Source: an uncultured Bacteroidales bacterium
GTDB lineage: Bacteria > Bacteroidota > Bacteroidia > Bacteroidales > UBA3663
Reading direction: 5' to 3'
Assembly (NCBI GenBank): GCA_905235375.1
Contig: CAJOLH010000004.1
Coordinates: forward strand, 71,141-135,140
DNA: 64,000 nucleotides
Position numbers and translations under genes: made by a program. This document shows positions 4,573 to 50,574 of the stretch, piece after piece (within the stretch, counting starts at the first letter, position 1; each line of letters opens with the position of its first letter). A model generated the notes under the pieces. It searched no databases and was not told the DNA's origin. It saw only the letters and a program-made list of their open reading frames with translations.

Positions 4573-6594
4573 TCAGATTTTCTCGAAGGGAACGGAATTC
4601 CCGCAGGACTCGGATTTCCCTGAAGGCCCTAAGTCCTTTACCAATGCCTTGGCGATGCTCAAGACATCAATCCCGCATATCTGGTGCAGTTCGCTCACTG
4701 CACCCTGGGTGATGAACTCGTCAGGAATGCCCAAGCAATGAATCTTGCCCTCGTAGCCCTGACGATTGGCCTCTTCGAGCACGGCGCTACCGAAACCTCC
4801 GGCCAAAGCGCCATCCTCGATGGTGATAATACGCGCGTACCTTTTAAATATATACGCGAGGAGCTCCACATCGAGCGGCTTGCAGAACACCATGTCGTAG
4901 TGCGCCACGCCCCTCTTGGTCACCGTTCGGCCATCCTCCAGGTCCAAGCCTGCCTCAACCCTATCGATAGCCTTCTCAGCTTCGATACCTATCGGGCCGA
5001 ACGAGAGGATGGCTGTGTCGCCGCTACCCTCCCGCAGGCAGTAACCTCGACCTATCTCTACTGCTTCGAGCTCATTCTTCCAGTTTGGATTGCCCTCGGC
5101 ATCGGTACCGCCGATACTGCCACGCCCGCGCGGATAACGTATCATGAAGGGGCCATCGGCAACTTCTACTGCTGTCACCATCAGCTTGCGCAACCAATGC
5201 TCATCGATGGGCGAACAAACCGTCATGCCCGGAATGGCACGGAAATAGGGAATGTCGAGCACACCGTGATGCGTCGGGCCATCGGAACCAACCAGCCCCG
5301 CACGATCCAGACAGAACACCACGTGCAGATGTTGCAACGCAACGTCATTCACCACCTGGTCGATGGCACGCTGCATGAAGGTTGAATAGATGTTGCAGAA
5401 GGGCAGCATACCCTCCTTGGCCAAACCTCCGCTGAAAGTCACTGCATGTTCCTCGGCAATACCCACGTCGAAGGTGCGATCGGGGAATCGATCCATCATA
5501 TAGGTCATCGAACAACCCGTCGGCATGGCTGGAGTCACGCCCACTATCCGTTGATTCTTCTCTGCAAGCTCCACCAACGTCTTGCCAAAGACATCCTGGA
5601 ACTTGGGCGCCAGTCCTTCGGTCTGTTCCTTGATGCGCACACCGGTTACGGGATCGAACTTGCCGGGGGCGTGCCAGATGGTGGCCTGTTCCTCAGCCTG
5701 CTGGAATCCCTTGCCCTTGATGGTGCAGACGTGCAGCATCTTTGGTCCGCCAAGGTCCTTGATTTTGCGCAACGTCCTAACAAGCGATATCACGTTGTGG
5801 CCATCTACGGGACCGAAGTAGCGAATGTCGAGACCTTCGAAGATATTCTGCCGATGCGAGAAGAGCGACTTCACACTGTTGGTGAATCGTATCAGCGCGC
5901 GACGCAGACTATCGCTGATCAGTCCGTGACGCTTCAGCGCATTGTATGCCTTGTAGCGCAACAGGTTGTAGCGCTGGCTGGTGGTGATGCGCGTCAGGTA
6001 ATGATAGAGTGCGCCGACGTTCTGGTCGATGGCCATCTGATTGTCGTTGAGCAGGATGAGCAGATCGTTCGGATGCGACGATGCATTGTTCAAGCCTTCG
6101 AAGGCCATGCCTCCACTGATTGAAGCATCGCCGATGACAGCCACCACCTTCCGTTTGTTGCCCTCCAGATTGTTTGCCACTGCCATACCCAATGCCGCCG
6201 AAATGCTGTTCGAAGCATGACCCGTCGAGAACGTATCATACTCGCTCTCCCGTGGATTGGGGAATCCGCTCAAACCTCCCAGCTGGCGCAGGGTGGGAAA
6301 CGTGTCGCGTCGGCCTGTCAGTATCTTATGGGCGTATGCCTGATGACCCACATCCCACACCAGACGGTCTTCGGGCGTGTCATAGACATAGTGCAAGGCC
6401 ACGATTATCTCGATGGCTCCCAAGCTCGAAGCGAAGTGCCCGGGGTGGACACTCACCTGCTCGATGATGAACTGTCGAAGAGCCTGACAGACATCCGGCA
6501 ACTGCTCGATGGGCAGTTTTCTGAGGTCGGCAGGACTATCGATGCAGTCCAATATGTTTTTATATTTTTCTTCCAAAGTTGTTTTCTTATTCAA
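4573..6594 (-). CDS. dxs: 1-deoxy-D-xylulose-5-phosphate synthase
   Basis: 673 aa with DXS/TPP motifs ([30 protein letters not shown]). The track start at 6594 is a TTG and there is no nearby in-frame ATG, so the exact start is uncertain. Confidence 0.92.
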
Positions 6595-15581: not shown

Positions 15582-15729
15582 CACTGCGATTTCGGAGAAA
15601 CACGAATTATCACGAATGAACACGAATTGATTCTGCAAAGGCGCCTGCAGAATGATTAATAAAACCAAAGAAACTATGCATACAATTATCTTCCACGATC
15701 ACCAGGCTCAACAATGCAAAGGGGAGCAC

Positions 15730-16200
15730 TCTTCCGACAGACAAAGCTCCTCTTCCTTTTGCGGGAACATTGTGACAGCCGACAGAATACTTCCGCGAAA
15801 GGATGAAGAACTCTCACGCCCGACAGAGTACCCGATGCTACGGGATAGAATACTCCATCGCCCGACAGCGTACCCGATGCTACGGAATGACGTACTCCAT
15901 CGCCCGACATAGTACCTGCTTCAACTGCGGAAATACGCTAACGCCCGACATGGTACTTCCGCAATTCGCGCAAATATCGCGACAGCCGACAGAATACCCG
16001 ATGCTACGGAATGGTGTACTCCATCGCCCGACAGAGTACACGATGCTATCGGATGGAGTACCCTCACGCCCGACAGAGTACATGCCACAACTGCGGAAAC
16101 ATTCCGATGGCCGACAGAATACTTCCTCAGTTTGCGCAAGCATCGTAACAGCCGACAGCGTATTTGGTCCAATTTGTCACACACGACGGACAAAATGGCA
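15730..16200. repeat. tandem array A: about 11 units of 41-42 nt, each starting sCCGACAGnGTAC
   Basis: CCGACA(G/T) recurs at 15734, 15778, 15819, 15861, 15903, 15944, 15985, 16027, 16069, 16110 and 16151. Several units carry the internal inverted repeat GAGTAC...GTACTC. Confidence 0.9.
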
Positions 16201-16283: not shown

Positions 16284-18428
16284 ATGGCAACAAACATGAA
16301 TTACCCAAACACCCAGCAGCAGGGTGAAAAGGCGCTGGACAAGTATGCCCAGAACCTGTGCGAGCTTGCACGAAAGGGAAAGCTCGACCCCGTGATTGGT
16401 CGTGACGAGGAAATCCGACGTGTGCTGCAGATCCTGAGTCGAAGGACCAAGAACAACCCCGTACTGATCGGCCAGCCTGGCACAGGCAAGACCGCCATTG
16501 CGGAAGGCCTGGCACAGCGTATCGTACGCGGTGACGTGCCCGAGAACCTGAAGAAGAAGCAGATCTATTCGCTCGACATGGGCGCACTGGTGGCAGGTGC
16601 AATGTATAAGGGCGAGTTCGAGGACCGATTGAAGAGCGTCATCAAGGAGGTGCAGGAAGCCAACAGCGACGATGCCACCGGCAACGACATCATCCTCTTC
16701 ATCGACGAGATCCACACCCTGGTGGGCGCCGGCGGCGGTCAAGGCTCGATGGATGCCGCCAACATCCTGAAGCCTGCCCTGGCACGTGGCGAACTGCGTT
16801 GCGTGGGTGCCACCACCCTCGACGAATACCAGAAGTACTTCGAGACCGACAAGGCCCTGGAGCGCCGATTCCAGAAGGTGATGGTCGATGAGCCCGACGA
16901 GACGGCTGCCATTGCCATCCTGCGTGGTCTGAAGGAGCGCTACGAGAACCACCACCACATCCGTATCAAGGACGAGGCCGTGATCCAGGCCGTGCGCCTC
17001 TCGACGCGCTACATCACCGACCGCTACCTGCCCGACAAGGCCATCGACCTGATTGACGAGGCTTCGGCCAAACTGCGTATGGAGCGCGATTCCGAGCCAC
17101 AGGCTTTGGACGAAATCCATCGTCAGATCATGCAGCTCCAGATCGAGCGCGAGGCCATCAAGTGGGAGAAGGACAAGGCCAAGATTGATGACATCGACGA
17201 GAAAATCAAGGCTTTGCAGGCCGAAGAGAAGAAACTCAACGACCAGTGGAAGAAGGAGAAGCAGCTCATCGAAGTCATCCAACGCAACAAGGAACAGATG
17301 GAGCAACTGCGCTTCGAGGCTGAACAAGCCAAGCAGCAAGGCGACTACGGCAAGGTGGCAAAAATCCAGTACGAGACCATCCCGGGACTGGAGAAGCAGA
17401 ACGAGCAGATCTCGAACGACCTGCACCAGCAGGTGGGCGAAGGCAATGCCCTGATTCGCGAAGAGGTCACTGCCGAGGACATCGCCGAAGTGGTAAGCCA
17501 CTGGACGGGCATCCCCGTGAACAAGATGATGACCTCGGAACGCGACAAGCTGCTCCAACTCGAGACCGAACTGCACAAGCGCGTAGTAGGTCAGGATGCT
17601 GCCATCGAGGCAGTGTCGAACGCCATCCGTCGCAACCGAGCAGGCCTCTCCGACCCCAACCGCCCCATCGGCTCATTCCTCTTCCTGGGTCAGACGGGCG
17701 TGGGCAAGACCGAGCTTGCAAAGGCCCTGGCAGAGTTCCTCTTCGACGACGAAAGGATGATGACACGCATCGACATGTCGGAGTACCAGGAGAAGTTCGC
17801 CGTAACCCGTCTGTTCGGTGCGCCTCCAGGATACGTGGGCTACGAGGAGGGTGGACAGCTCACCGAGGCAGTGCGCCGCAAGCCCTATCAGGTGGTGCTC
17901 TTCGACGAAATCGAGAAGGCTCACCCCGACGTATTCAACACGCTGCTGCAAGTGCTCGACGAGGGTCACATGACCGATGGCAAGGGACGCAACGTCAACT
18001 TCAAGAACACCATCATCATCATGACCTCGAACCTCACCGAAGAACAGCTCTACGGCAAGCAGGCCATCCTAACGGCTGAAGGTCGCCCGATGCAGCCCAT
18101 CCGTCGCGAGTTCCTCAACCGCATTGACGAGATCGTGAACTTCAGTGCCCTCACCGAAGATGACATTCGCCGCGTGGTGGATATCCAGCTGGAGCGTTGC
18201 TACCACCAGCTGAAGCAGAGCGACATCGAACTGCGTGTGACCGACGATGCGCGCCGCTTCCTTGCCAAGGAGGGCTACGACCCCGAGTTCGGCGCACGTC
18301 CCGTGAAGCGTGCCATCCAGCACCTGGTGCTCAACGAACTGTCGAAGACGCTCATCGGTGGCAAGGTCAATCGCCAGCAGCCCATCATCGTGGATGTGGC
18401 CGACGGCGCAATCACGTTCAGAAACTAA
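16284..18428 (+). CDS. clpB: ATP-dependent chaperone ClpB lacking the N-terminal domain
   Basis: 714 aa with both AAA+ modules ([18 protein letters not shown]), the coiled-coil middle domain, and [10 protein letters not shown] near the C-terminus. The protein starts at the position equivalent to about residue 150 of E. coli ClpB ([30 protein letters not shown]). Confidence 0.93.
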
Positions 18429-18468: not shown

Positions 18469-18470
18469 TG

Positions 18471-18603
18471 ATTTTAAGGGATATTTAGGGATTATAAGGG
18501 ATTATAAGGGACGATACCTTCACTTTATTGGTAATGGGACCCAAGAAACATTCGTCCCTTCATATCCTTTAAAATCCCTAAGAATCCCTTAATATCCCTA
18601 ATT
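18471..18603. repeat. oligomer-armed long hairpin (TAAGGGA-type arms, GGGAC...GTCCC core)
   Basis: The left arm has 4 TAAGGGA-like units. The core at 18508-18558 reads GGGACGATACCTTCACTTTATTGGTAATGGGACCCAAGAAACATTCGTCCC. The right arm has 5 TCCCTTA-like units. Confidence 0.85.
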
Positions 18604-20090: not shown

Positions 20091-20234
20091 ACCATTGACG
20101 CGATATGACGTTACACAAATAATTCATGTAAATTCATGATAATTCGTGTTAAGAAAAGCCACATATAATTATCGTTAATTTTGGTTGCTTACTTATCTAA
20201 GTAGTCAATCATATTTATTGGGAGTTAAAGAGCA

Positions 20235-22635: not shown

Positions 22636-22813
22636 CGGCATTTTTCGGCAAACGAATACAATAATTTGACGTTTCGCACGTTTATTTATCTAACGCGAAT
22701 TACCATTAATTTACACGAATTTCTATTGAATTCGAAATACAATAAATAATTTATGGTAAATTGACGATAATTCGTGTAAAAAAAATATAATCATCAATAA
22801 TTTTTGTTATAGT

Positions 22814-24090: not shown

Positions 24091-24211
24091 AAGGTTTGAA
24101 GGGTTTGAAAGGTTTGAAAGGTTTGAAGGGGTTGAAGGGTTTGAAGGGTTTGAAGGGTTTGAAGGGTTCGAAAGGTTTGAAAGGTTTGAAGGGTTTGAAG
24201 GGTTCGAAAGG
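24091..24211. repeat. (GGTTTGAAG)n 9-mer tandem repeat, about 14 units
   Basis: Fills the whole pepT-aroA intergenic space, with variants GGTTTGAAA, GGGTTGAAG and GGTTCGAAA. Confidence 0.95.
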
Positions 24212-24212
24212 T

Positions 24213-26070: not shown

Positions 26071-26149
26071 GAGAGGTTTGAGAGGTTCGAGGGGTTTGAG
26101 AGGGTTCAAGGGGTTTAAGAGGTTCGAGAGGTTCGAGAGGGGTGTGAGG
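26071..26149. repeat. (GAGAGGTTTGAG / GAGGTTCGAG)n oligomer run
   Basis: GAGAGGTTTGAGAGGTTCGAGGGGTTTGAGAGGGTTCAAGGGGTTTAAGAGGTTCGAGAGGTTCGAGAGG. Inverted relative to 25539-25579. Confidence 0.9.
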
Positions 26150-26270
26150 TTCCGTTAGTTTTCGTTATGACGAAATCCCGATATAACGAAATCCCGTAAT
26201 CACGGAATATCGTTATTCCGTTATTCCGAAATTCCATCATTCCGAAATTCCGTAATTCCGAAATTCCGCC
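26150..26270. repeat. oligomer-armed hairpin (ACGAAATCCCG / ATTCCGAAA-type units)
   Basis: The centre ATAACGAAATCCCGTAATCACGGAATATCGTTAT is palindromic. The right arm is (TTCCGAAAT / TTCCGTAAT)n. The same unit recurs at 44441-44509. Confidence 0.8.
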
Positions 26271-29200: not shown

Positions 29201-29419
29201 GGCGATGAGATTGAAGCCTGGAGTGCGGGTGATGAAGGCGAAGAAGGCATGACCACCATCGAAGTACCCGCCATAGACCCTGGAAACTCCGAGCCTTCCG
29301 AGAACTCCGAAAGCTCCGAGCCTTCCGAGAACACCGAAAGCTCCGAAAATTCCGAGAACTCCGAGCCTTCCGAAAACCCCGCCCCCACCCCCGAATCCTC
29401 CGAGCAAGAAAATGAATAA
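26294..29419 (+). CDS. large TPR-repeat lipoprotein with a Ser/Glu/Pro/Asn low-complexity tail
   Basis: 1041 aa with a lipoprotein signal (LLVVCLSACKSN) and repeated TPR-like helices. The start is a TTG at 26294, the only start that preserves the signal peptide. The stop overlaps the next gene's start. Confidence 0.8.
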   Translation: MKTQRHHPLHLIVTACIAVLLVVCLSACKSNTKLNRGMKAMTTKYNIYFNGNEAFKEGLTAMENKHDEEFGQRIQLHPVYKLTDAKEPPANAQFDRTIEKCKIAVQRRSISNKPKRRGKNTPEYKLWLTHGEFNPFLHNAWMLSGKAQFYKGDFNAAAATFTYTARRFWWRKYTVAECHIWAARVYAVQGFNFDAEAELGLVIPQKQYNNQKELSALPAYKDLPRSLQKAFSLAQAEILLCKPETSLEAIDYLRKGRNASHSNAQKIRCNYLLAQLLEERGDYQEAYKIFGRLGHSGDNYKTQFNAKLAQTNVLSKMGGTSPKNLAKIEKKFNRMRHQFRNEEYLDQIYYGLGNVALLQQDTAKAIRQFETALEKSTRNGIDKAIAALRLGEITFIQEDYVKAQKAYSTAMGIIDKEFKGYKEIQRLSGVLDELQTHAETVQLQDSLLKLAELPREELDKVIARIIKDLIKAEKEAEDQERLAEYEANKSSNADPLASNDEQPTVGKQDKSWYFYNPAQVAKGKTSFQRTWGARKPEDDWRRKNKTETVFFDNDQDDGDSESKDQLAEEMPADSLVTDAPDGAPSTGEEAAENEDVNDPHKPDYYLAQIPFTDEQKQTANELIEEGLYNEGVIINEKLENFPLSIKTFRQLETRYPESQHRPDMYYAIYLMYMRMADMAQRKGETTRQNKMLAEAELWRRKLMDSYPESAYGVAVSDPNYIETLREMAKGQDSLYIHTYEEYLAGNTKLVHDNYNFVHEKWPLSKLMPKFLFLHALSYVQDGESQKFKEALEQLTATYPESDVSPLASLMIKGYREGRELQLGSKVRSMMWGTSLKRGDGDEAGVDESMQFLDDDNVPHVLLLAFKTDSLSNIQNNLLFEIAKFNFENYLVKDFDLEIIDTGGGLSVLVISGFDDLDELLDYHDRMDASDTFELPDGITQIDISDPNFRLLLRGKTFEEYFDWVQATYGGDEIEAWSAGDEGEEGMTTIEVPAIDPGNSEPSENSESSEPSENTESSENSENSEPSENPAPTPESSEQENE

Positions 29420-38133: not shown

Positions 38134-38313
38134 AGGGATATTAAAGGGGAGTAAAAGAGTAGTAAAAGGGTAGTAAAAGGGACAATACCTCCGTCTAATC
38201 AAAACGGGTCCCAATAAACATTCGTCCCTTTTACTACCCTTTTACTCCCTTTTTACTACTCTTTTACTACCCTTCCCCTTTCACTACCCTTTTACTACTC
38301 TTTTACTCCCCTT
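38134..38313. repeat. oligomer-armed long hairpin (AGTAAAAGGG-type arms) with the same core family as 18508-18558
   Basis: The core at 38179-38228 reads GGGACAATACCTCCGTCTAATCAAAACGGGTCCCAATAAACATTCGTCCC. The left arm is (GTAGTAAAAGG)n and the right arm is (CCCTTTTACTAC)n, about 8 units. Confidence 0.9.
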
Positions 38314-39480
38314 TTACTCCCCTTCTATTCCCTTTTTATCCCTATATTTCTCCCACACCGGCGAAGCGAAGAAGGTGACGAAGAATTTGGTCAGTCCTGT
38401 TCCGACGCCCTTGCTTCCTTGAATCACTACTTCAGGCAAGTTCTTCATCGAATCCACCACGGCCTGACGCTTCACATTGCGTCGGGCCGTGCTGTCGTGC
38501 ATGGCAACGGCACCCTCCATAAGGAATGTGCGAGCTACATAACCGATACGCAGCGTCATCAGTGCATTCACCGCGCCGTCGATAGCAGGACCAGCGATGA
38601 TGCCTGGAATCTTGAAGTTACGCAGGATAGCTCCCAATGAGAATCCCGACTCTGCCTCCGGGTCGATGTCGCTTGCATCTACCACTACGTCTGACCCATC
38701 GACAGCCACATCGGCACCATCTACAGTGACCTCTGTGCCATCAGCGACCTCTCCCACATTCATATCAGCACCATCCACACCACCCGCAAAGAGCGAGAAC
38801 GGACGGATGTCGCCCACTCCATGCAAAGCCTCCGATACGCACCACGAAAGCACGGCCGTAACGAGGATGCGCCAATAGAGGCGAATCAGCTGCGAATACG
38901 TAGGACGGTAACCGGTAGCCAGTATCAGCTCCTTCACCATCGTATAGTCGAGCACAAGGCACGAGAGCGTATCGACCTTGCTGCTCGGCGAAACAGCTGT
39001 TACCATAAAGACCGTCTGTGCCCATTGCCTCACCAGCGGATCGATGCCGCGCACACCGAGTGCTGCATCGCCATGCAATCGCAGCTGCACCTCGCGGTCG
39101 ATAACCACACGCAGGTTCTGTTCGTCGTGCCATTGCTGCACGTCGCTGCGCAGCTGCAGCTGATGATCCACGCGCATCTTTTCGTCCGCAATATAGTTGC
39201 AGTTCTCGGCCAGGCGCGCGCCAAATTTCTTCAGCTCCACTACGTTGTTCAATCCCTCATGATGCAGGCTCGGCAATTCGGGAGTGCGATGCAGCTTGAC
39301 GATGGGCCTTATCACCAGCCAAACGAAGGCAGCAAGGATGAGTGCATAAAACGCATATTCCATCCACCATAGGTGCGTCACCCTTGCCAGCTTCTCGCCG
39401 ATGGTGATCACGTCACCGATGAACATCAGCACGATGATGCCCAAGAAGATTGCCAATGTGATGATGATGTTTCGTTTCAT
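38314..39480 (-). CDS. YcjF-like DUF697 membrane protein with an acidic VDGxDV repeat insert
   Basis: Two N-terminal TM helices. The central DTLSCLVLDYTMVKELILATGYRPTYSQLIRLYWRILV and C-terminal GPAIDGAVNALMTLRIGYVARTF match the YcjF/DUF697 pattern. The insert reads GGVDGADMNVGEVADGTEVTVDGADVAVDGSDVVVDASD. Confidence 0.65.
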   Translation of the reverse strand: MKRNIIITLAIFLGIIVLMFIGDVITIGEKLARVTHLWWMEYAFYALILAAFVWLVIRPIVKLHRTPELPSLHHEGLNNVVELKKFGARLAENCNYIADEKMRVDHQLQLRSDVQQWHDEQNLRVVIDREVQLRLHGDAALGVRGIDPLVRQWAQTVFMVTAVSPSSKVDTLSCLVLDYTMVKELILATGYRPTYSQLIRLYWRILVTAVLSWCVSEALHGVGDIRPFSLFAGGVDGADMNVGEVADGTEVTVDGADVAVDGSDVVVDASDIDPEAESGFSLGAILRNFKIPGIIAGPAIDGAVNALMTLRIGYVARTFLMEGAVAMHDSTARRNVKRQAVVDSMKNLPEVVIQGSKGVGTGLTKFFVTFFASPVWEKYRDKKGIEGE

Positions 39481-39664
39481 AATTTTTCATTTAAAGATTC
39501 TAAGGGATTCTAAGGGATTTTTAGGGACATTATCGTTGCCTAAAGAATTCTGTTCGAGCTGACAATTGTTAATTGTTAATTATTAATTGTTAATTGTTAA
39601 TTATTAATTGTTATTTAACTATCGTCCCTTAATATCCCCAAATATCTCTAATTATTCCTTAATA
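39481..39664. repeat. composite oligomer repeat (TAAGGGATTC arms, (TTAATTGTTAA)n centre, GGGAC...GTCCC ends)
   Basis: TCTAAGGGATTCTAAGGGATTTTTAGGGACATTATCG ... (AATTGTTAATTGTTAATTATT)x2 ... AACTATCGTCCCTTAATATCCCC. Confidence 0.85.
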
Positions 39665-41578
39665 TTACGTAAACCTGATTCCTTCCAACCTCGTCTTGAG
39701 CGTCTTGAGCGCAGTGATGCGGGCCTCCAGCTGGTCGAAGTCTGGGATGATGCCGGCGAGCAGTTCGGCACGTTTCTCTTCAAGCAGCTTCGAATAAGCC
39801 TCGCTGCGCCTTCGGATGAAGTGCTGCAGATACTGTTCCACCTCCTGCTGCACACCGGGAAGGATGGTTGTCTGCAGACAGCCACCGATATAGGTGCCGG
39901 AAGCAGCTGGCTGCGACATACCGATAAGGGCACACCTGGCATTATTCATCATGCGGTGCATACTCTCATAATTATATCGGTCGATGAGGAAAGTGTCGCT
40001 AATCTTCTGCTCCACGTCGTAAGCATCCTTGACGGCTCCCAAGTCAATGGGCTTCGGTTCCTCGTCATTGAAGTCTGTTAATGGCTTGAATTGCATACCG
40101 CCCACACGGTCCAGCGCATTTCGAATCTCCAGATAGCGGCTCTCGGTCATCGCATCGATCTTGGCCAAATAGTCCGACATCGACACGTGGCTATCGACGT
40201 ATTTTCGGATGGTCTGCTCAAACAGCTCCAACATCGATGTGACAATGCCACGGGCAGTTGCTCCATTATATTTGGTGCCCAAGGTCAGTTGCTGGCTCAT
40301 GGACACATTAGCGATTCCATCGAGGCTGCTCGCAAGGTCGTCGGCTGCAAAATGCAGGGGGAAGGCTGCTCGCGAATAGACGAGCTGCCGATCTTCACGG
40401 ATGGCATCGAGTTCTTGCTCGGCGTTATGGTATCTTTCACGAGCGACTTCTGACTTTGCCAGTTGCTCATCAATCAGCTTGCAGAGCGACTCCTTCTCGT
40501 AACGGATACGACCCAGGCAGTTATTCAGTCGGGTAGTATGCTGGCTGCGGATGACGTGCTGATAGAGTTCTTTTTCAATCTCGCTGAAGGAAGCTGTCGC
40601 CGCCTCCAGTTCGGAACGATAATCAGGAACGACCTCCTTGCCGTACGCCTCATCGCGGTTGTCGGCAACCTTGCCTAAATTGATTGAGAAACAGTTGGCA
40701 TCAGGCAGATTGAATCCGCGCTGACGGATGATCTCCTTCGCCTTCTCCATCTGCCCACGGATGGCGCGCTGCTGTTCTTCCTTTGTGCGCCAATAGGCAG
40801 ACTCGAAATAGTTGTGAATCAGGCAGACGGGAGCCGAACCATTGCCAGCACGGAGGATGTCGAAGAAGTCGCTCGAAATCTTCGAGATGGCAGAATTGGA
40901 ACTTTGGATGAAGATGACGAGGTCGGCACGATGCGTGATGATTGGATAAGCCTTGTCGTCGAGGTTGGCATTCAAGCCGTCGAAACCCGGCATATCCACA
41001 AGGAAGATGTCACGCCCCAGAAAATCGCCACCCGGGGCTGTGATAGATGTCAACACATTGTCGGTAGCAACGCGCACCACCTTCTGATCGATGGGCTGTT
41101 CGACGTATTCGGTGAGGTTTTCCTCATTGAGGGGATAATGCTGCACCTCAAGTCCCGATAGGTTGGCATAGCTCAGACCCTTGATGTAGTCGATGATGGA
41201 CTCCACGTGTTCGGCTTTCGAAACTTCGGGGTCGAGCTCGGTCAAACGGAATGTTGTGATGCGGCACTCCTCTCCCGTCTTGCATTGTGAAATGACCGAA
41301 GGACGAACCGTACACTCCAGAAAATGTGTAGGGCTGACGTGGGCATGAGCCAGTGCATTGACGAAGGTGGATTTTCCGGACTTCACGGGTCCCACCACAA
41401 TCACCACAAAAGCTTTGCTATTCACCTCCTCTGCACGATTCAGCAGCAGGTGCATCTGGGCATCGAGCTCCTGATTCCATTTCAGATCCGTATCTTGCGC
41501 TATCGTCTTGAGTCGATCGCTTACCCTTGCTGCCGTCTTTTCGAGCAGTTCCAGGTTTGTGCTTGAGGTATTTGCCAT
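39665..41578 (-). CDS. bacterial dynamin-like GTPase
   Basis: 637 aa from the ATG at 41578 (the track's 41635 start is a TTG). P-loop VVGPVKSGKSTFVNAL and G3 FLVDMPGFDG, followed by a long helical C-terminal region. Confidence 0.8.
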   Translation of the reverse strand: MANTSSTNLELLEKTAARVSDRLKTIAQDTDLKWNQELDAQMHLLLNRAEEVNSKAFVVIVVGPVKSGKSTFVNALAHAHVSPTHFLECTVRPSVISQCKTGEECRITTFRLTELDPEVSKAEHVESIIDYIKGLSYANLSGLEVQHYPLNEENLTEYVEQPIDQKVVRVATDNVLTSITAPGGDFLGRDIFLVDMPGFDGLNANLDDKAYPIITHRADLVIFIQSSNSAISKISSDFFDILRAGNGSAPVCLIHNYFESAYWRTKEEQQRAIRGQMEKAKEIIRQRGFNLPDANCFSINLGKVADNRDEAYGKEVVPDYRSELEAATASFSEIEKELYQHVIRSQHTTRLNNCLGRIRYEKESLCKLIDEQLAKSEVARERYHNAEQELDAIREDRQLVYSRAAFPLHFAADDLASSLDGIANVSMSQQLTLGTKYNGATARGIVTSMLELFEQTIRKYVDSHVSMSDYLAKIDAMTESRYLEIRNALDRVGGMQFKPLTDFNDEEPKPIDLGAVKDAYDVEQKISDTFLIDRYNYESMHRMMNNARCALIGMSQPAASGTYIGGCLQTTILPGVQQEVEQYLQHFIRRRSEAYSKLLEEKRAELLAGIIPDFDQLEARITALKTLKTRLEGIRFT

Positions 41579-41724
41579 TGTTCTGTAAGTAACGTAAATT
41601 TCGCAAGTGAGTTGAACATATATATTTCTGCGCAATAACAGTGCCAGGAGTCTTACATAACTCGCGAGGAATTATTGTCCGAAAAAGGGCACACAGATTC
41701 GCACTGATTCACACAGATCTTTGC

Positions 41725-42270
41725 TTGCGCACGTCAGAATGCTTTATCCTAAAGCAGAAAGCATTATGTCGCGCGTCAGAGTGCTTCATCACAAGCAGGA
41801 AGCATCATGTCGCGCATCAGAGTGCTTCATCCCGCAGCAGCAAGCATCATGTCGCGCGTCAGAGTGCTTCATCACGCAGCAGTAAGCATCTCGTCGCGCG
41901 TCAGAGTGCTTCATCACGCAGTAGCAAGCATTACGTCGCGCGTCAGAGTGCTTCATCACGCAGCAGAAAGCATCATGTCGCGCGTCAGAGTACTTCATTC
42001 CGCAGCAGCAAGCATTACGTCGCGCGTCAAAGTGCTTCATCACGCAGAAGAAAGCATCACGTCGCGCGTCAGAGTGCTTCATCACGCAGCAGTAAGCATC
42101 ACATCGCGCGTCAGAGTGCTTCATCACGCAGCTGTAAGCATCACATCGCGCGTCAGAGTGCTTCATCCCGCAGCAGCAAGCATCATGTTGCGCGTCAGAG
42201 TGCTTCATTCCGCAGAAGAAGCATCATGTCGAGCGTCAGAGTGCTTCATCCCGCAGAAGCAAGCGTAGAG
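41725..42270. repeat. tandem array B: about 13 units of 42 nt, consensus GTCGCGCGTCAGAGTGCTTCATCACGCAGCAGNAAGCATCAT
   Basis: Units start at 41768 and recur every 42 nt (41810, 41852 ... 42188, 42229), plus one degenerate leading unit. Only a few positions vary between units. Confidence 0.95.
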
Positions 42271-42449
42271 ACAAGCAATGACTTCCCAAAGCGGTGTGGC
42301 CGACTCAGGAAATATGGACACCCTTCTGTTATCAACTTGAAGACAAGTTCCGTCTTGTCGATGTACAAGTATCCATCCTTACGAAGCTTTTGAAACTCTG
42401 TATGCAACAGGGTACTTTCTCTTCTTTATTGTTGGGCCAAGGAACACTT

Positions 42450-43472
42450 TTATTCTTCAAACTTCACCAGTATGCGGAAGACCTTTCCGGGAGCTTCGGC
42501 CCAGGCTTCGAGCGCCTGCTGTGCCTCTTCGGGCTGGATGATGCCGCTAATGAAGGGCTCCATTTGCATCTGTGTGTGGTGCATATAATTCAGGACGGCG
42601 CGGAAATCGTCGGGTGTGGCGTTGCGCGAACCACGGATATCGAGCTCCTTCTGCACAAAGAACTTCGTCTGGAACGATACGTCGCTCTTGGCATAACCAA
42701 TGCAGACCACGCGACCTGTGAACGACACGGCATCGATGGCAGAAACGTAGGTAATCGGCGAACCGACAGCCTCAATCACCACGTCGGCACCCATGCCGTC
42801 GGTGTATTCCATCACCTTGGTGAGGATGTCCTCCTTTGTGGAGTTGATGCCATAGGCAGCACCTGCCTTCATCGCTAGATCGAGCTTCTCCTGACTCAAA
42901 TCCACAGCGATGACGGTGGCACCACGCTGCACACTGCGGATGATGGCACCCAGGCCGACCATGCCACAGCCAAGCACCAGCACTGTGTCGATGTCCGACA
43001 CCTGGCCACGGCTCACTGCATGGAATCCTACCGACATAGGCTCGATAAGTGCAGCATCACGCGGAGTGACTCCCTTCACAGGGATAATCTTCTGCCAAGG
43101 AAGGGCAATATATTCGCGCATCGCGCCATCGCGCTGCACACCGAGCGTCTCGTTGTTCTGGCAGGCATTGTAGCGACCGTTGCGACACGAAGCGCAATGT
43201 CCGCAGTTGGTATAGGGATTGACGGTGACCACCTGACCCACATGAAGATCGGCGGGACAACCCTCTCCAAGTGCCTCAATCACGGCACCAATCTCATGAC
43301 CGGGAATGACGTTGGGTTTGGCCATGGTATTGCGGCCCAGGAATGTATTGAGGTCACTGCCACAGAATCCGACATATTTGAGCTTGAGCAGCACTTCACC
43401 TGCTCCTGCCACTGGCTTTGGGAGGTCAACGACCTCAATCTTCTGTAATGAAGGTATGCGTAAAGTTTTCAT
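42450..43472 (-). CDS. zinc-dependent alcohol dehydrogenase family, L-galactonate 5-dehydrogenase-like
   Basis: GHEIGAVIEALGEG zinc signature, a structural-zinc Cys cluster (CGHCASCRNGRYNAC) and GCGMVGLG. Confidence 0.75.
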   Translation of the reverse strand: MKTLRIPSLQKIEVVDLPKPVAGAGEVLLKLKYVGFCGSDLNTFLGRNTMAKPNVIPGHEIGAVIEALGEGCPADLHVGQVVTVNPYTNCGHCASCRNGRYNACQNNETLGVQRDGAMREYIALPWQKIIPVKGVTPRDAALIEPMSVGFHAVSRGQVSDIDTVLVLGCGMVGLGAIIRSVQRGATVIAVDLSQEKLDLAMKAGAAYGINSTKEDILTKVMEYTDGMGADVVIEAVGSPITYVSAIDAVSFTGRVVCIGYAKSDVSFQTKFFVQKELDIRGSRNATPDDFRAVLNYMHHTQMQMEPFISGIIQPEEAQQALEAWAEAPGKVFRILVKFEE

Positions 43473-48465: not shown

Positions 48466-50367
48466 TCACCGTTTTCCCCGCTTCCGTCCCTTCTCTCCAC
48501 GGAACTTCTCGAAAGGCAGGTGCTCGGCTTCGTCAAGACGCTGGGCACGTTTCTTTTTCGAGGGCTTTTCCTCGTCGTGATGCTCCTCATTCGCCGGGCT
48601 CACCACCACCTTGCGTCCGTGCCAATCCGCACCATTCATATCCTTGATGACAAAACGTGCATCCTGCTCCGGCACCTCGAAGTACGAGAAGTTGGTGAGC
48701 AGGTCGATACGTCCCATCTCGATGCGGTGATGCACGTTGGCATTCATCAGCCCGATGAGCTGCTTGGGGAAGATGCCGTCGCGCTTGCCCAGATTGATGA
48801 ACAGCCTTGCATAGCCCGGTTCGGCCTGTGTATTGACTCCATTATAGATACGCGCATACGAGGCATTGCGTGCGCCTTCGCCGGTGTGTGCTGCCGCCTT
48901 CTTCTCGCGCTTTGGCTTCTCTTCGGGTATATCAAGATTCTCCGACCCCTTGTAGAATTCAAGCATTCGATTGAACTCCAGCGAAACGATGCGCTTCACC
49001 AGATCCTCGGCCGAAAGCCATCCGAGCTTCTTGAGCACAGGGTCGAGGTACTTCTCAACCTCCTCTTCGTTCACCACCACCTTCTCCAGTCGGTCGGCCA
49101 GTCCGAAGAGCTGCTTTTCGATGATGCGTTCGGTGGTGGGCATCATTCCTTTCTCGAACGTCTTGCCGAGCATACGCTCGATGTCATTCAGACGACGGCG
49201 TTCCTTGATGTGAACGATGCAGATCGATGTTCCCTTCTTGCCGGCACGGCCCGTGCGTCCTGAACGATGGGTATAGACCTCGTTGTCGTCGGGCAAACCA
49301 TAGTTGATGACGTGCGTCAAGTCATCGACATCCAAACCGCGTGCTGCCACGTCGGTGGCGACAAGCAGCTGCAGGTGGCGGGTGCGGAACTTGCGCATCA
49401 CCAGGTCACGCTGCTCCTGCGACAGGTCGCCGTGCAGCGCGTCGCAGTTGTAGCCCTCGTCCATCAGGTTCTTGGCTATCTCCTGTGTCTCCAGCTTGGT
49501 GCGGCAGAAGATGATGCCATAGATGCTCGGGTAGAAATCCACGATGCGCTTCAGAGCAGCATACTTGTCCTTGGCATGGACGAGGTAATAGACGTGGTTC
49601 ACGTTGGCGGCTCCCTCATTGCGGTGTCCGATGGTGACCTCCACAGGATTGTGCATATAGTTCTTCGCAATCTCTGCGATGGCCTTGGGCATGGTGGCGC
49701 TGAAGAGCATGGTGCGATGCTGCTTGGGCAGGTTCGAAAGGATGGTCTCGATATCCTCCTGGAAGCCCATCGAAAGCATTTCGTCCGCCTCGTCAAGCAC
49801 CAGCGTCTTCACCTCACTCAGGCGCACTGCCCCTCGGTTCACGAGGTCTATCAGTCTGCCTGGGGTAGCCACCACCACATGCACTCCGCGCTTCAAGGCA
49901 CCAATCTGGCTACCTATCGACGAACCGCCATACACGGGCAGGATGGCAATGCCGCGCAGGTATTTCGAATAGTCCTGCAGGTCAGAAGCAATCTGTAGGC
50001 AAAGCTCACGCGTAGGAGCCAGCACCAGCGCCTGTGGCTGGGGCGCATCCTCAGGGTCAATCCATTTGCCGGTCTTGAAATCCTTCTTGATCTGGAAATC
50101 GCTGTAAACGGGAACAATGTCCACACTCTGTAGCAGGGGCAGGCCGAAGGCAGCGGTCTTGCCCGTACCCGTCTGTGCCAGGCCCACCACGTCGCGGCCT
50201 TCTTCGCTCAGGATGACGGGAATAATCTGCTCTTGGATAGGCATGGGGCGTTCGTAGCCAAGCTCCTCGATGGCACGAAGCAGCGGGAACTGGATGCCGA
50301 GTTCTTCAAACGATGCGAATCGGCCCGTTACTTCATCAGTCGTTGTTGTGTTCTGTAATTCTTCCAT
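48466..50367 (-). CDS. DEAD-box ATP-dependent RNA helicase (DeaD/CsdA-like) with DbpA domain and basic tail
   Basis: AQTGTGKT, VLDEADEML, SAT, HRSGRTGRAG, a DbpA-type domain (LFINLGKRDGIFPKQLIGL), and a Lys/Arg-rich C-terminus. Confidence 0.92.
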   Translation of the reverse strand: MEELQNTTTTDEVTGRFASFEELGIQFPLLRAIEELGYERPMPIQEQIIPVILSEEGRDVVGLAQTGTGKTAAFGLPLLQSVDIVPVYSDFQIKKDFKTGKWIDPEDAPQPQALVLAPTRELCLQIASDLQDYSKYLRGIAILPVYGGSSIGSQIGALKRGVHVVVATPGRLIDLVNRGAVRLSEVKTLVLDEADEMLSMGFQEDIETILSNLPKQHRTMLFSATMPKAIAEIAKNYMHNPVEVTIGHRNEGAANVNHVYYLVHAKDKYAALKRIVDFYPSIYGIIFCRTKLETQEIAKNLMDEGYNCDALHGDLSQEQRDLVMRKFRTRHLQLLVATDVAARGLDVDDLTHVINYGLPDDNEVYTHRSGRTGRAGKKGTSICIVHIKERRRLNDIERMLGKTFEKGMMPTTERIIEKQLFGLADRLEKVVVNEEEVEKYLDPVLKKLGWLSAEDLVKRIVSLEFNRMLEFYKGSENLDIPEEKPKREKKAAAHTGEGARNASYARIYNGVNTQAEPGYARLFINLGKRDGIFPKQLIGLMNANVHHRIEMGRIDLLTNFSYFEVPEQDARFVIKDMNGADWHGRKVVVSPANEEHHDEEKPSKKKRAQRLDEAEHLPFEKFRGEKGRKRGKR

Positions 50368-50412: not shown

Positions 50413-50523
50413 AAGGTGGCGGCTTCCTACTCTCCCACTTTCGTAGTACCATCGGCGTTACAAGGTTTAACTTCTCTGTTCGGAATGGTAAGAGGTGGAG
50501 CCCTTGTGCTATAACCGCCTTAT
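50413..50523 (-). rRNA. rrf: 5S ribosomal RNA, orphan copy (no 23S/16S nearby)
   Basis: The reverse strand reads GGCGGTTATAGCACAAGGGCTCCACCTCTTACCATTCCGAACAGAGAAGTTAAACCTTGTAACGCCGATGGTACTACGAAAGTGGGAGAGTAGGAAGCCGCC. This contains the universal 5S blocks CCATTCCGAACAGAGAAGTTAA and GATGGTACTACGAAAGTGGGAGAGTAGG. The ends are approximate to within a few nt. Confidence 0.9.
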
Positions 50524-50566: not shown

Positions 50567-50574
50567 CAAATTTA
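50567..50574 (-). promoter_or_regulatory. -7 box TAAATTTG upstream of the orphan 5S rRNA
   Basis: TAnnTTTG match about 44 nt upstream of the mature 5S 5' end. Confidence 0.55.

What the first reader, a model, noticed from the sequence alone, without database searches (positions are those of the whole stretch)
41725..42270. Tandem array B: 13 near-identical 42-nt units, each a bulged hairpin, upstream of the dynamin-like gene
Directly seen: the consensus GTCGCGCGTCAGAGTGCTTCATCACGCAGCAGNAAGCATCAT repeats at exact 42-nt spacing from 41768 to 42229, plus one degenerate leading unit. Variation is concentrated at a few positions: ATCAC/ATCCC/ATTCC, CAGNAAG, and the last 3 nt (CAT/CAC/TAC/CTC). Each unit can fold as GA(G)TGCTT ... 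AAGCATC, a 7-bp stem with one bulge and a 14-nt loop, separated by a CG-rich linker (GTCGCGCGTC). The linker plus the 5' arm resembles array A (12 of 15 identities), so the two arrays look like diverged members of one family. The period of 42 is 14 codons, so three ORFs of 139-250 aa appear in the track, but they are pure repeat translations. There are no unique spacers, so this is not a CRISPR array. No canonical promoter box lies between the array and the dynamin-like gene, so the array is probably part of its transcript (inference). Both arrays would then sit in leaders of stress-type genes, although in opposite orientation relative to the downstream gene.
Basis: partly seen in the sequence, partly recalled or inferred. 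Interest (0 to 1): 0.65.

Follow-up and report, generated by a model that had tools for sequence, protein, structure and literature searches.

The report
Orphan copy of dispersed 42-bp minisatellite
The 13-unit array is real, but the evidence does not support an RNA-hairpin leader: it is one of more than 100 copies of a 41/42-bp repeat family found almost only in one group of uncultured rumen Bacteroidales, and every gene found for a small AraC-type DNA-binding protein in that group is followed by such an array.

Summary
Array B (41726-42271) is confirmed: 12.8 copies, period 42, with two 41-nt units. It is non-coding and is not a CRISPR array.

It is a 26-28-bp pseudo-palindrome, AAGyAyTmTG-T-CGssCG-T-CAnrrTGCT, followed by a 13-14-nt variable segment.

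This core defines a dispersed family of at least 108 arrays in about 10 rumen Bacteroidales MAGs (10-18 or more per genome). Array A of the window belongs to it.

In array B the unit hairpins fold no better than shuffled sequence. Across the family the arms show no covariation, and they pair slightly less well than arms swapped at random between units.

Arrays occur in every kind of intergenic setting and next to unrelated genes. Canonical promoter boxes were seen between array and downstream gene at several loci.

One association is strong. All 24 genes for a 132-146-aa stand-alone AraC/XylS-type HTH protein found in 185,579 species genomes lie in this clade, and each is followed within about 250 nt by a family array.

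Best reading: array B is an orphan array of helically phased DNA binding sites for that protein family, or at least derives from such gene-plus-array modules. Binding is inferred, not shown.

The parts
41726..42271 (.). Array B: 13 head-to-tail units of 42 nt (two of 41 nt), including a degenerate first unit (41726-41767) and a decayed last unit. The T..T form of the core reads on the + strand.
   Evidence: TRF 41728-42264, 12.8 copies; register table; 12 core matches from 41759 to 42245.
41842..41868 (+). Example of the conserved 27-nt core, AAGCATCATG-T-CGCGCG-T-CAGAGTGCT. It is a pseudo-palindrome with two non-complementary T. The other cores start at 41759, 41800, 41884, 41926, 41968, 42010, 42052, 42094, 42136, 42178 and 42219.
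   Evidence: Family position frequencies from 646 units: T11 and T18 are each 92-93% T, and CG..CG is 96-99% conserved; window coordinates.
41869..41883 (+). Example of the variable segment between cores (TCATCACGCAGCAGT). It is homogeneous within array B but differs between genomes and subfamilies.
15766..16165 (.). Array A: the second family member in the window. It is an 'A-type' array of about 400 nt with AGTAC arms, a CGGGCG/CGGCCG centre and a four-unit higher-order repeat. The T..T form reads on the - strand. It lies 119 nt upstream of a ClpB-type AAA+ gene (16284-18428, +).
   Evidence: TRF periods 42 and 166; core hits; Pfam; orthologous array next to the same gene in L088.
39665..41578 (-). 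Dynamin-like GTPase gene (637 aa). Its 5' end lies 150-180 nt from array B. It is a neighbour, not shown to be functionally linked.
   Evidence: Pfam Dynamin_N 3.7e-17; orthologues with and without an upstream array.
41617..41624 (-). Near-consensus Bacteroidetes -7 box TATATATG (consensus TAnnTTTG, one mismatch), 38 nt upstream of the dynamin-like start codon and between the array and the gene.
   Evidence: Read directly from the sequence. The strict consensus is absent from 41579-42449. The consensus itself is quoted from memory.
41674..41718 (.). A 45-nt stretch left of the array holding three 10-nt CACnGAT repeats. It is multicopy in the source metagenome and is a separate short-repeat family, not a shared array 'leader'.
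   Evidence: Contig depth 234-314 against 17 in the flanks in run X1; no copy next to arrays in the loci held at that point, L001-L122.
42395..42413 (+). Terminator-like hairpin plus T-rich tail on the + strand, between the array and the 3' end of the alcohol dehydrogenase gene.
   Evidence: This is a consensus match only, no commoner than in shuffled sequence.
42450..43472 (-). Zinc-type alcohol dehydrogenase gene. Its stop codon lies about 180-205 nt from array B.
   Evidence: Pfam ADH_N / ADH_zinc_N.

Best explanation
Array B is an 'orphan' locus of a clade-specific, dispersed family of 41/42-bp DNA minisatellites.

Each unit is a 26-28-bp pseudo-palindromic core (AAGyAyTmTG-T-CGssCG-T-CAnrrTGCT) followed by a 13-14-bp variable segment. 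The cores therefore recur every four helical turns, on one face of the duplex.

The family is tied to a family of small (132-146 aa) stand-alone AraC/XylS-type proteins with two helix-turn-helix motifs. Every such gene found is followed at once by an array ('master' modules). Most arrays, including A and B of this window, stand alone in ordinary intergenic DNA.

I infer that the cores are binding sites for these proteins and that the arrays work at the DNA level. They would act as phased multi-site platforms or sinks next to promoters and gene ends.

I also infer that arrays grow and shrink by slippage or unequal recombination, and that they are homogenised within a genome by conversion or by spread of modules.

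Shown: the array itself, the family, its restriction to one clade, the lack of RNA-type covariation, the fixed period, and the gene-array linkage. Inferred: binding by the protein, any regulatory effect on the dynamin-like gene, and the mode of spread.
For: Family and clade:
Among the rows shown, nearly all are in about 10 rumen Bacteroidales MAGs related to the window.
- 108 arrays hold two or more cores.
- The dominant unit type is shared by arrays at several loci within a genome (clearest in RGIG8089 and RGIG7607) and differs between genomes at the orthologous dynamin locus.

DNA-level rather than RNA-level:
- Arms pair in 77-78% of cells, against 25-48% when the partner column is slid.
- That pairing is lower than in all 500 shuffles, and compensatory changes number 17 against 41 expected (register 1) and 15 against 46 (register 2).
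- G.T and A.C mismatches at pair 6/23 are equally frequent, so neither strand is favoured.
- Array B's unit hairpins fold no better than shuffles.
- Arrays occur in both orientations and in co-directional, convergent and divergent intergenic regions.

Period: of 529 spacings, 45% are 41 nt and 40% are 42 nt. The rest are multiples, and no 40- or 43-nt spacing was seen more than once. The variable segment meanwhile diverges strongly in sequence.

Gene linkage:
- A search with the protein alignment in 185,579 species genomes gave 24 loci. 23 are in seven MAGs of this clade and one is on a contig binned as Pseudobutyrivibrio.
- 24 of 24 have an array starting -13 to +247 nt after the stop codon, with no core upstream.
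- The same holds for 5 of 5 homologues sampled from metagenome assemblies.
- A 1,250-bp gene-plus-array module is duplicated at 95% identity at two loci of one assembly.

Protein:
- Pfam HTH_18 is above threshold only for distant paralogues.
- The AlphaFold2 model has pLDDT 82.9.
- The top 35 or so PDB fold matches are nearly all DNA-binding domains of AraC-family proteins, including AdpA-DNA, GadX, MarA-DNA and ToxT.

Subtype match:
- Protein subgroup I sits next to AGCA-type arms, mostly with a CGCGCG centre (five of six loci). Array B is of this type.
- Subgroup II sits next to AGTAC / CGGCCG cores. Array A is of this type.

Source metagenome: run X1 holds several homologous gene contigs at depth 17-25, like the window's 17.
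Against: - No binding experiment or transcript data exists.
- Linkage and subtype correlation would also arise if arrays merely originate from the 3' end of this gene and are inherited together with it.
- Only 1-6 genes were found per MAG against 9-18 or more arrays. RGIG8089 has 11 or more arrays, mostly with a CGCGCG centre, but only one gene was found and it belongs to another subgroup. MAG incompleteness at repeats may explain this.
- No homologue or relic of the gene lies in the 64-kb window.
- Known AraC-type domains bind asymmetric sites of about 20 bp, whereas the core is a 26-28-bp pseudo-palindrome.
- About a third of arrays lie between convergent genes, where no promoter is available to regulate.
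- In gene-linked copies the array lies between the stop codon and the first strong hairpin. It is therefore probably transcribed there, and an RNA role is not excluded.
Confidence: 0.5

Rival explanations
1. The family is a selfish or neutral palindromic minisatellite with no dedicated partner, comparable to REP/BIME or BrickBuilt elements. The units spread and homogenise through host recombination and replication slippage. The HTH gene is only the place where the repeat first arose, or a favoured landing site. Array B then has at most incidental effects such as spacing, curvature or transcription pausing.
For: - The family is dispersed, intergenic, restricted to one lineage and variable in copy number.
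- It is present or absent at orthologous sites.
- Neighbouring genes show no functional enrichment.
- Arrays lie preferentially just after stop codons and between convergent genes, as reported for REPs (PMC3733652).
- Arms within a unit pair less well than in every shuffle, as expected if perfect palindromes are unstable.
- These genomes carry several other short-repeat and MITE-like families.
Against: - Core sequence and the 41/42-bp period are kept across genomes whose dynamin-like proteins are only 82-86% identical, while the variable segment diverges.
- The gene-array linkage is 24/24 plus 5/5, with a fixed geometry. Protein subgroup correlates with core type.
- No transposase, RAYT or recombinase recurs beside the arrays.
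- No shared leader/tail or terminal inverted repeats were found.
Confidence: 0.3
2. The array acts at the RNA level. It would be transcribed as a 5' leader of the dynamin-like gene, as a 3' UTR of the upstream gene, or as its own non-coding RNA. Its repeated stem-loops would stabilise mRNA, attenuate transcription or sequester an RNA-binding protein.
For: - Both strands of the whole array fold better than shuffles (z = -4.6 and -3.5).
- Some family arrays have strong unit hairpins (-13 to -22 kcal/mol).
- Gene-linked arrays start at or near the stop codon with no terminator in between, so they are probably in that mRNA's 3' UTR.
- A terminator-like hairpin follows array B on the + strand.
Against: - Array B's own unit hairpins are not better than shuffles.
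- No covariation appears in either register, and pairing is below the shuffled controls.
- There is no strand asymmetry of wobble pairs at the most variable arm pair.
- After gene-linked arrays are set aside by my own count, orphan arrays show little orientation preference relative to transcription.
- Promoter boxes lie between array and downstream gene at several loci.
- No Rfam family matches.
- No public RNA run holding the stretch could be listed.
Confidence: 0.12
3. The array is a set of heat-shock operators of the CIRCE type, bound by HrcA. The arms AGCACTC / GAGTGCT equal the CIRCE arms, and array A abuts a ClpB-type gene.
For: Arm identity with CIRCE (TTAGCACTC-N9-GAGTGCTAA, quoted from memory). 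Array A and its orthologue lie next to a ClpB-type gene.
Against: - The arm spacing is 12 nt, not 9.
- No N9-spaced CIRCE-like site exists in the window.
- Most arrays are not near chaperone genes.
- Many units have non-CIRCE arms such as AGCATTATG or CACGATGCT.
- HrcA was not looked for.
Confidence: 0.02
4. The array is a coding repeat (a protein with a 14-residue repeat), or a CRISPR-like or type III toxin-antitoxin-like RNA array.
For: The period of 42 equals 14 codons. ORFs of 139-250 aa run through the array, and gene callers have called them in public assemblies.
Against: - Two 41-nt units lie inside array B, and family arrays mix 41- and 42-nt units, which breaks any frame.
- The called ORFs have no Pfam hit.
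- The '14-nt spacers' are near-identical within an array, so there are no unique spacers.
- No cas genes were seen among the window proteins scanned, and no nuclease-type gene recurs among the neighbours.
- There is no PADLOC match.
Confidence: 0.02

Closest known systems
BrickBuilt minisatellite/MITE of Porphyromonas gingivalis (Klein et al. 2015, PMC4596501)
   Same: - It is a Bacteroidales element of tandem units without spacers.
- It has many dispersed copies (19 in strain ATCC 33277), always intergenic.
- Copy number varies from 1 to 22.8.
- One copy lies next to clpB.
- Annotation pipelines predict hypothetical genes over some elements that proteomic data do not support.
   Different: - The BrickBuilt unit is 23 nt, not 41/42.
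- BrickBuilt has conserved 'leader' and 'tail' flanks with small terminal inverted repeats. No shared flanks or inverted ends were found here.
- No linked protein gene is described for BrickBuilt.
- There is no sequence similarity.
REP / BIME elements and REPtrons (REP plus RAYT transposase) (Di Nocera et al. 2013, PMC3733652)
   Same: - Both are imperfect palindromes of 20-40 bp, extragenic and in high copy.
- Both are lineage-specific.
- Both favour positions after genes and between convergent genes.
- Both can cluster.
- In both, a protein gene is physically flanked by the repeats while most repeats are orphans.
   Different: - The units here are strictly head-to-tail with a fixed 41/42-bp period, not inverted pairs.
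- There is no consistent GTAG or CGTC tag at one end.
- The linked gene encodes an AraC-type HTH protein, not an IS200/IS605-type tyrosine transposase.
- The array lies on one side of the gene only (3').
MarA / SoxS / Rob-type stand-alone AraC-family DNA-binding proteins and their marbox sites
   Same: The linked protein is a small stand-alone AraC-type domain with two HTH motifs. Its fold matches MarA-DNA, AdpA-DNA and GadX DNA-binding domains.
   Different: - Known members act on single asymmetric sites of about 20 bp at promoters.
- To my knowledge no genome-wide tandem arrays of sites, and no array fused to the gene's 3' end, have been described.
- Sequence similarity is marginal: HTH_18 scores 17-24 bits, below the cut-off, for the close family.
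CIRCE operator (HrcA)
   Same: Inverted arms GCACTC / GAGTGC, and one array lies next to a ClpB-type gene.
   Different: The spacer is 12 nt, not 9. The sites are tandemly repeated. They lie mostly away from chaperone genes.
CRISPR arrays
   Same: Regularly spaced, partly palindromic repeats of about 28 nt.
   Different: The intervening 13-14 nt are far too short and are near-identical within an array. No cas genes were seen among the proteins scanned. Such arrays could be miscalled by CRISPR finders.
Plasmid iteron and centromere arrays (for example parC bound by ParR)
   Same: Head-to-tail, helically phased repeats next to the gene of the DNA-binding protein that coats them. This is the working model proposed here.
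   Different: Those are single loci on plasmids with short (about 6-22 bp) units. This family is chromosomal and dispersed over tens of loci, and it has no match in the plasmid or phage collections.

Membership tests
REP/BIME (repetitive extragenic palindromes) | Imperfect palindrome of 20-40 bp, in high copy number and extragenic | tested here: met
   The 26-28-bp core pairs in 78% of cells. At least 108 arrays and 646 units were found, lying outside the long ORFs called.
REP/BIME (repetitive extragenic palindromes) | Conserved unpaired GTAG or CGTC tag at one end of the palindrome (PMC3733652) | tested here: not met
   GTAG precedes the core only in some subtypes (..CGTAGC AAGCA..), while others have GCGG, GAGC or GAAGA. 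CGTC lies inside the core, not at its end.
REP/BIME (repetitive extragenic palindromes) | Association with a RAYT (IS200/IS605-type tyrosine transposase) gene | tested here: inconclusive
   No transposase family appears among the commonest Pfam families of 92 neighbour proteins. The whole genomes were not screened.
BrickBuilt-type minisatellite within a MITE | Tandem units flanked by conserved leader and tail segments with terminal inverted repeats | tested here: not met
   The flanks of about 30 arrays, aligned by eye, share no common leader or tail. BLAST of array B's flanks against the loci then held found no copy beside another array.
BrickBuilt-type minisatellite within a MITE | Multiple dispersed intergenic copies with variable unit number | tested here: met
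CRISPR array | Unique spacers of about 26-72 nt between repeats, and cas genes nearby | tested here: not met
   The segments between cores are 13-14 nt and near-identical within an array. No Cas domain was found in the 18 window proteins scanned, most of them around the two arrays.
CIRCE / HrcA operator | TTAGCACTC-N9-GAGTGCTAA inverted repeat upstream of chaperone genes | tested here: not met
   The arms are 12 nt apart. GCACTC-N9-GAGTGC has 0 matches in the window even with one mismatch allowed. Neighbours are not enriched for chaperones.
Any described RNA family (Rfam 15) | Match to a covariance model at or near its gathering score | tested here: not met
   No family reaches its gathering score over the array. 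The permissive scan gives only three chance-level eukaryotic hits of 11-20 bits.
Conserved structured RNA (hairpin array) | Base pairs kept by compensatory changes, and stability above that of shuffled sequence | tested here: not met
   There are fewer compensatory changes than in shuffles, and array B's units have z-scores of -0.5 and +0.5.
AraC/XylS family (for the array-linked protein) | DNA-binding domain of about 100 aa with two helix-turn-helix motifs | tested here: met
   HTH_18 scores 40-42 bits for distant paralogues and 17-24 bits, below the cut-off, for the close family. The AlphaFold2 model is all-helical with pLDDT 82.9. Nearly all of the best 35 or so PDB fold matches are AraC-family DNA-binding domains, with TM 0.65-0.78 on the target.
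Type III toxin-antitoxin RNA arrays (ToxI-like) | Tandem repeats of about 36 nt directly upstream of an endoribonuclease toxin gene | tested here: not met
   Arrays lie 3' of an HTH gene or stand alone. The linked protein has no meaningful PADLOC match.

The most novel reading that the evidence does not exclude
The arrays and the small AraC-type proteins together form a kind of system not yet described. Each protein paralogue would have a cognate, genome-wide set of helically phased 41/42-bp binding-site arrays, about 10 sites per array at tens of loci. The system would spread as a 1.2-kb gene-plus-array module. It could act as a chromosome-structuring, insulating or global regulatory layer in an uncultured rumen Bacteroidales lineage.
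Probability: 0.3. Interest if true: 0.8.

Novelty: new variant of a known kind. Interest (0 to 1): 0.6.

Why it matters
If the linkage reflects binding, this is a simple protein-DNA pair that can be tested directly. The protein is 132-146 aa and the site is 27 bp. The pair would organise tens of intergenic loci per genome in an abundant but uncultured rumen lineage. It would also be an example of a transcription-factor-type protein, rather than a transposase, tied to a dispersed repeat family.

There are practical consequences:
- These arrays break short-read assemblies. Many contigs carrying the HTH gene are only 0.5-2 kb long.
- They generate spurious ORFs that are already called in public assemblies.
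- They could be miscalled as CRISPR arrays.
- They could serve as strain markers, given their variable copy number.

For the window itself, the result removes the idea that the dynamin-like and ClpB-type genes share an RNA-hairpin leader.

Tried and rejected
- **Exact 19-mer of the B unit in GTDB species genomes:** 0 hits. In JGI metagenomes there were only 23 single hits, consistent with chance (my estimate), and no arrays. The B subtype is specific to the window's strain or species.
- **RNA evidence:** no public RNA run holding the stretch could be listed. Run X4 is of unknown type and is kept only as contigs, so transcription could not be tested.
- **Copy-number polymorphism at this locus:** the two other assemblies carrying the same dynamin protein have the identical array. 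Logan contigs break inside the array.
- **Shared leader or tail, i.e. a MITE test:** none found. The multicopy 41674-41718 stretch is a different short-repeat family.
- **Relic of the HTH gene beside arrays A or B:** a tblastn hit next to array A (E = 0.04) was not backed by a profile search (4 bits or less) and was rejected.
- **Strand bias relative to GC skew:** 56 against 33, weak, and the loci are not independent.
- **CIRCE, Rfam, phage, plasmid, PADLOC and PHROGs links:** none.
- **Serine-invertase-type site (12 + 2 + 12 bp) as an explanation for whole-array inversion relative to a conserved linker (L015/L121 against L056/L094):** considered, but left untested.
It was redone with database proteins only.
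It was redone on L244.
Full report
**1. The observation**

Tandem Repeats Finder reports one array at 41728-42264: period 42, 12.8 copies, 88% matches. The repeat finder shows copies in register at 42-nt steps.

Variation is concentrated at unit positions 22-23, 29, 32 and 39-42. Two units are 41 nt long, not 42 (core starts 41774 to 41815 and 42193 to 42234).

The core CGWCAGAGTRC occurs 23 times in the window against 3.6 expected. All but two of these lie in array B and in array A (15780-16122). The two arrays are therefore related.

Two other public assemblies carry the same locus with the identical 13-unit array.

**2. Setting**

The window comes from an uncultured Bacteroidales organism. 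It holds a Bacteroidales small SRP RNA and a FopS sRNA. The closest relatives of its proteins are rumen and omasum MAGs.

Both flanking genes are on the minus strand:
- a zinc-type alcohol dehydrogenase gene (42450-43472) ends about 180-205 nt to the right of the array;
- a dynamin-like GTPase gene (39665-41578) starts 150-180 nt to its left.

No strict Bacteroidetes -7 box (TAnnTTTG, consensus from memory) lies in the 871-nt intergenic region. A one-mismatch box, TATATATG, sits at 41617-41624 (-), between the array and the gene (sequence).

**3. What is conserved**

Orthologous dynamin loci were fetched from eight MAGs. Three of them (L005, L006, L007) have a 41/42-nt array upstream of the gene. 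The five closest relatives have none.

It is the two 'arms' together with the CG-rich 'linker': AAGCAyTaTG-T-CGCGCG-T-CAgAGTGCT.

From 646 units (427 distinct), the consensus is AAGyAyTmTG-T-CGssCG-T-CAnrrTrCT. Two non-complementary T flank the centre, each 92-93% conserved. These give the unit a polarity, which I call T..T on one strand and A..A on the other.

By this mark, array B reads T..T on the + strand and array A reads T..T on the - strand. Both therefore show A..A on the sense strand of the adjacent gene.

**4. A dispersed family**

A pattern for three successive cores, and then a pattern for one full core, were scanned against one genome for each of 185,579 species. Among the rows shown, all but one are in the same clade of about 10 rumen Bacteroidales MAGs. 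The exception is a contig binned as Pseudobutyrivibrio, which I suspect is a binning error.

I count 108 arrays with at least two cores. That is 9-18 or more per well-sampled genome.

The source metagenome also shows B-type units joined to other flanks at 3-16 times the local depth.

Spacing between cores is 41 nt (45%) or 42 nt (40%), and otherwise multiples of these. No 40- or 43-nt spacing was seen more than once.

Many 'A-type' arrays are about 400 nt long with a four-unit higher-order repeat.

The dominant unit type is shared by arrays at several loci within a genome, most clearly in RGIG8089 and RGIG7607. It differs between genomes at the orthologous dynamin locus. This indicates homogenisation within each genome, although short-read assembly of repeats could exaggerate it.

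**5. Not a conserved RNA hairpin, not coding**

The alternative hairpin across the linker folds at -6.5 kcal/mol (z = -0.5). On the minus strand neither is formed well.

Other family arrays do have strong hairpins, from -13 to -22 kcal/mol. Palindromy is therefore a family trait that has decayed in array B.

I tested both registers on 106 distinct units:
- the arms pair in 77-78% of cells, far above the slid controls (25-48%);
- that pairing is below all 500 column shuffles;
- compensatory changes are fewer than expected, 17 against 41 and 15 against 46.

At the most variable arm pair, G.T and A.C mismatches are equally common, so neither strand is favoured. Rfam gives nothing.

The mix of 41- and 42-nt units rules out a conserved reading frame.

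**6. Genomic context**

Viewed in the T..T orientation, the arrays sit as follows:
- 31 between co-directional genes (21 in one orientation, 10 in the other);
- 19 between convergent genes;
- 9 between divergent genes.

In the co-directional cases arrays usually lie closer to the stop codon of the gene before them (0-150 nt in most) than to the next start (about 100-590 nt). Canonical -7 boxes lie between array and downstream gene in L005-L007, L048, L075 and L117.

The 92 non-redundant neighbour proteins hit 171 Pfam families, none more than twice. No transposase or recombinase family appears among the commonest.

The 'stress-gene leader' idea is therefore not general.

**7. The linked gene**

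Clustering the neighbour proteins exposed one recurrent family of about 132-146 aa.
- It is a divergent stand-alone AraC/XylS-type DNA-binding domain. HTH_18 scores 17-24 bits for close members and 40-42 bits for distant paralogues.
- It gives weak sequence hits to the DNA-binding domains of GadX and AdpA.
- The AlphaFold2 model has pLDDT 82.9. Its best PDB fold matches are almost all AraC-family DNA-binding domains.
- The protein database holds 113 clusters of it, nearly all unnamed. Many sit on very short contigs.

I then searched from the gene side, independently of the repeat.
- 24 loci were found in the species genomes. 23 are in seven MAGs of this clade and one is on the Pseudobutyrivibrio-binned contig.
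- All 24 have a family array beginning -13 to +247 nt after the stop codon. None has a core upstream.
- In 22 of the 24, most units read A..A on the gene's sense strand. The other two are ties.
- Five further homologues taken from metagenome assemblies show the same layout.
- In some, the stop codon lies inside the first unit.
- Two loci of one assembly share a 1,250-bp module at 95% identity. It comprises 200 nt of upstream sequence, the gene, a 220-nt spacer and an array of about 400 nt, and it ends at the array's edge.

Protein subgroups go with core types.
- Subgroup I (..KDLRAAWHMLTGTK..SERVMSHVFERY..) goes with AGCA arms, mostly with a CGCGCG centre. Array B is of this type.
- Subgroup II (..RDLRSAWFMLTGTR..SEVVMSHVFKRF..) goes with AGTAC arms and a CGGCCG centre. 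Array A is of this type.

The window holds no such gene and no relic of one. The metagenome run that carries the window does hold several homologous contigs at matching depth.

**8. Interpretation**

Well supported: array B is a non-coding orphan member of a clade-specific dispersed minisatellite family whose 'master' copies are fused to the 3' end of a small AraC-type gene.

Inferred: the cores are binding sites for these proteins. The 41/42-bp period, about four helical turns, would place them on one face of the DNA. The arrays would then act at the DNA level.

The main rival is that the repeat is simply selfish or neutral and began at this gene. An RNA role is disfavoured by the covariation tests, the lack of orientation preference and the folding results. 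It is not excluded, because gene-linked arrays are probably transcribed as 3' UTR: no terminator separates the stop codon from the array, and in L265 the first strong hairpin follows the array.

**9. Comparison with known elements**

The nearest published analogues are BrickBuilt of P. gingivalis (PMC4596501) and REP/BIME elements with their RAYT genes (PMC3733652).

This family differs from both in unit length and fixed period, in its head-to-tail order, in lacking leader/tail or GTAG/CGTC tags, and in being linked to an HTH protein rather than a transposase.

CIRCE shares the arm sequence but not the spacing or the context. There is no match in the phage or plasmid collections and no meaningful match in the defence-system models. 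Four full-text searches aimed at such repeats found no description of this family.

**10. Caveats**
- All relatives are short-read MAGs, so copy numbers and apparent homogenisation may be distorted.
- My ORF calls for context are crude (greedy longest ORFs).
- Loci from different MAGs are partly orthologous, so the counts are not independent.
- There are no expression or binding data.

Noticed in passing
window 50414-50522 (-), with 48466-50367 (-): A lone 5S rRNA gene (Rfam 71.6 bits) with no 16S or 23S in the window. It lies 47 nt upstream of, and on the same strand as, a DEAD-box/DbpA-type RNA helicase gene. A TAAATTTG -7 box sits just upstream at 50567-50574 (-). It could be an orphan 5S gene or a 5S-like leader of a helicase that binds rRNA.
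   Followed up: no
window 38143-38336; 18470-18601; 39496-39613; 26071-26268: Intergenic regions are packed with 7-11-nt tandem repeats that occur as facing inverted blocks. One example is AAAGGGTAGTA x3.5 opposite CCCTTTTACTA x10 between convergent genes. These blocks can form very long hairpins. Similar repeats occur in L001-L008, several of them around the dynamin-like / DUF697 gene pair.
   Followed up: partly
window 41674-41718; also 15601-15627, 20132-20148 (-), 22704-22720: Triplets of 10-nt repeats (CACnGAT / CACGAAT). The copy next to array B is multicopy in the source metagenome (depth 234-314 against 17). In another copy it directly follows a TAACTTTG promoter box.
   Followed up: partly
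L015 1-118; L056 864-1197; L094 1922-2337: A second, unrelated 42-nt minisatellite family in the related MAGs. It carries an ACGTWCGT palindrome, which from memory resembles the inverted-repeat consensus of Bacteroides invertible regions. A conserved linker of about 100 nt joins it to arrays of the main family. The main-family array occurs in either orientation relative to that linker.
   Followed up: partly
L007 about 5400-5600; L236 and L237 about 2800-3000: A MITE-like element of about 150 nt with terminal inverted repeats (GACGAAAAATGGAGGGAATTGAATGG...). In one MAG it is inserted between the array and the dynamin gene. Elsewhere it lies upstream of the HTH gene.
   Followed up: no
L010, L041, L054, L077, L080, L113: Tandem arrays with 41-43-nt periods but unrelated sequences turn up in other Bacteroidota, including Parabacteroides, Arcicella and Prevotella micans. 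The roughly four-turn period may be a wider habit of the phylum. The search pattern itself selected for this period.
   Followed up: no
L188 4959-5288, L179 6412-6732, L184 5091-5420, L178 3381-3710: A more distant paralogue group of the small AraC-type protein (27-30% identity, HTH_18 above threshold). In three of the four loci a short two-core array lies about 250-290 nt downstream, apparently in the opposite (T..T) orientation.
   Followed up: partly
window 24093-24212; 29283-29381: 9-nt tandem repeats (GGTTTGAAG x13; CTCCGAGAC-type x5-10) at the ends of long ORFs. They may be coding repeats.
   Followed up: no
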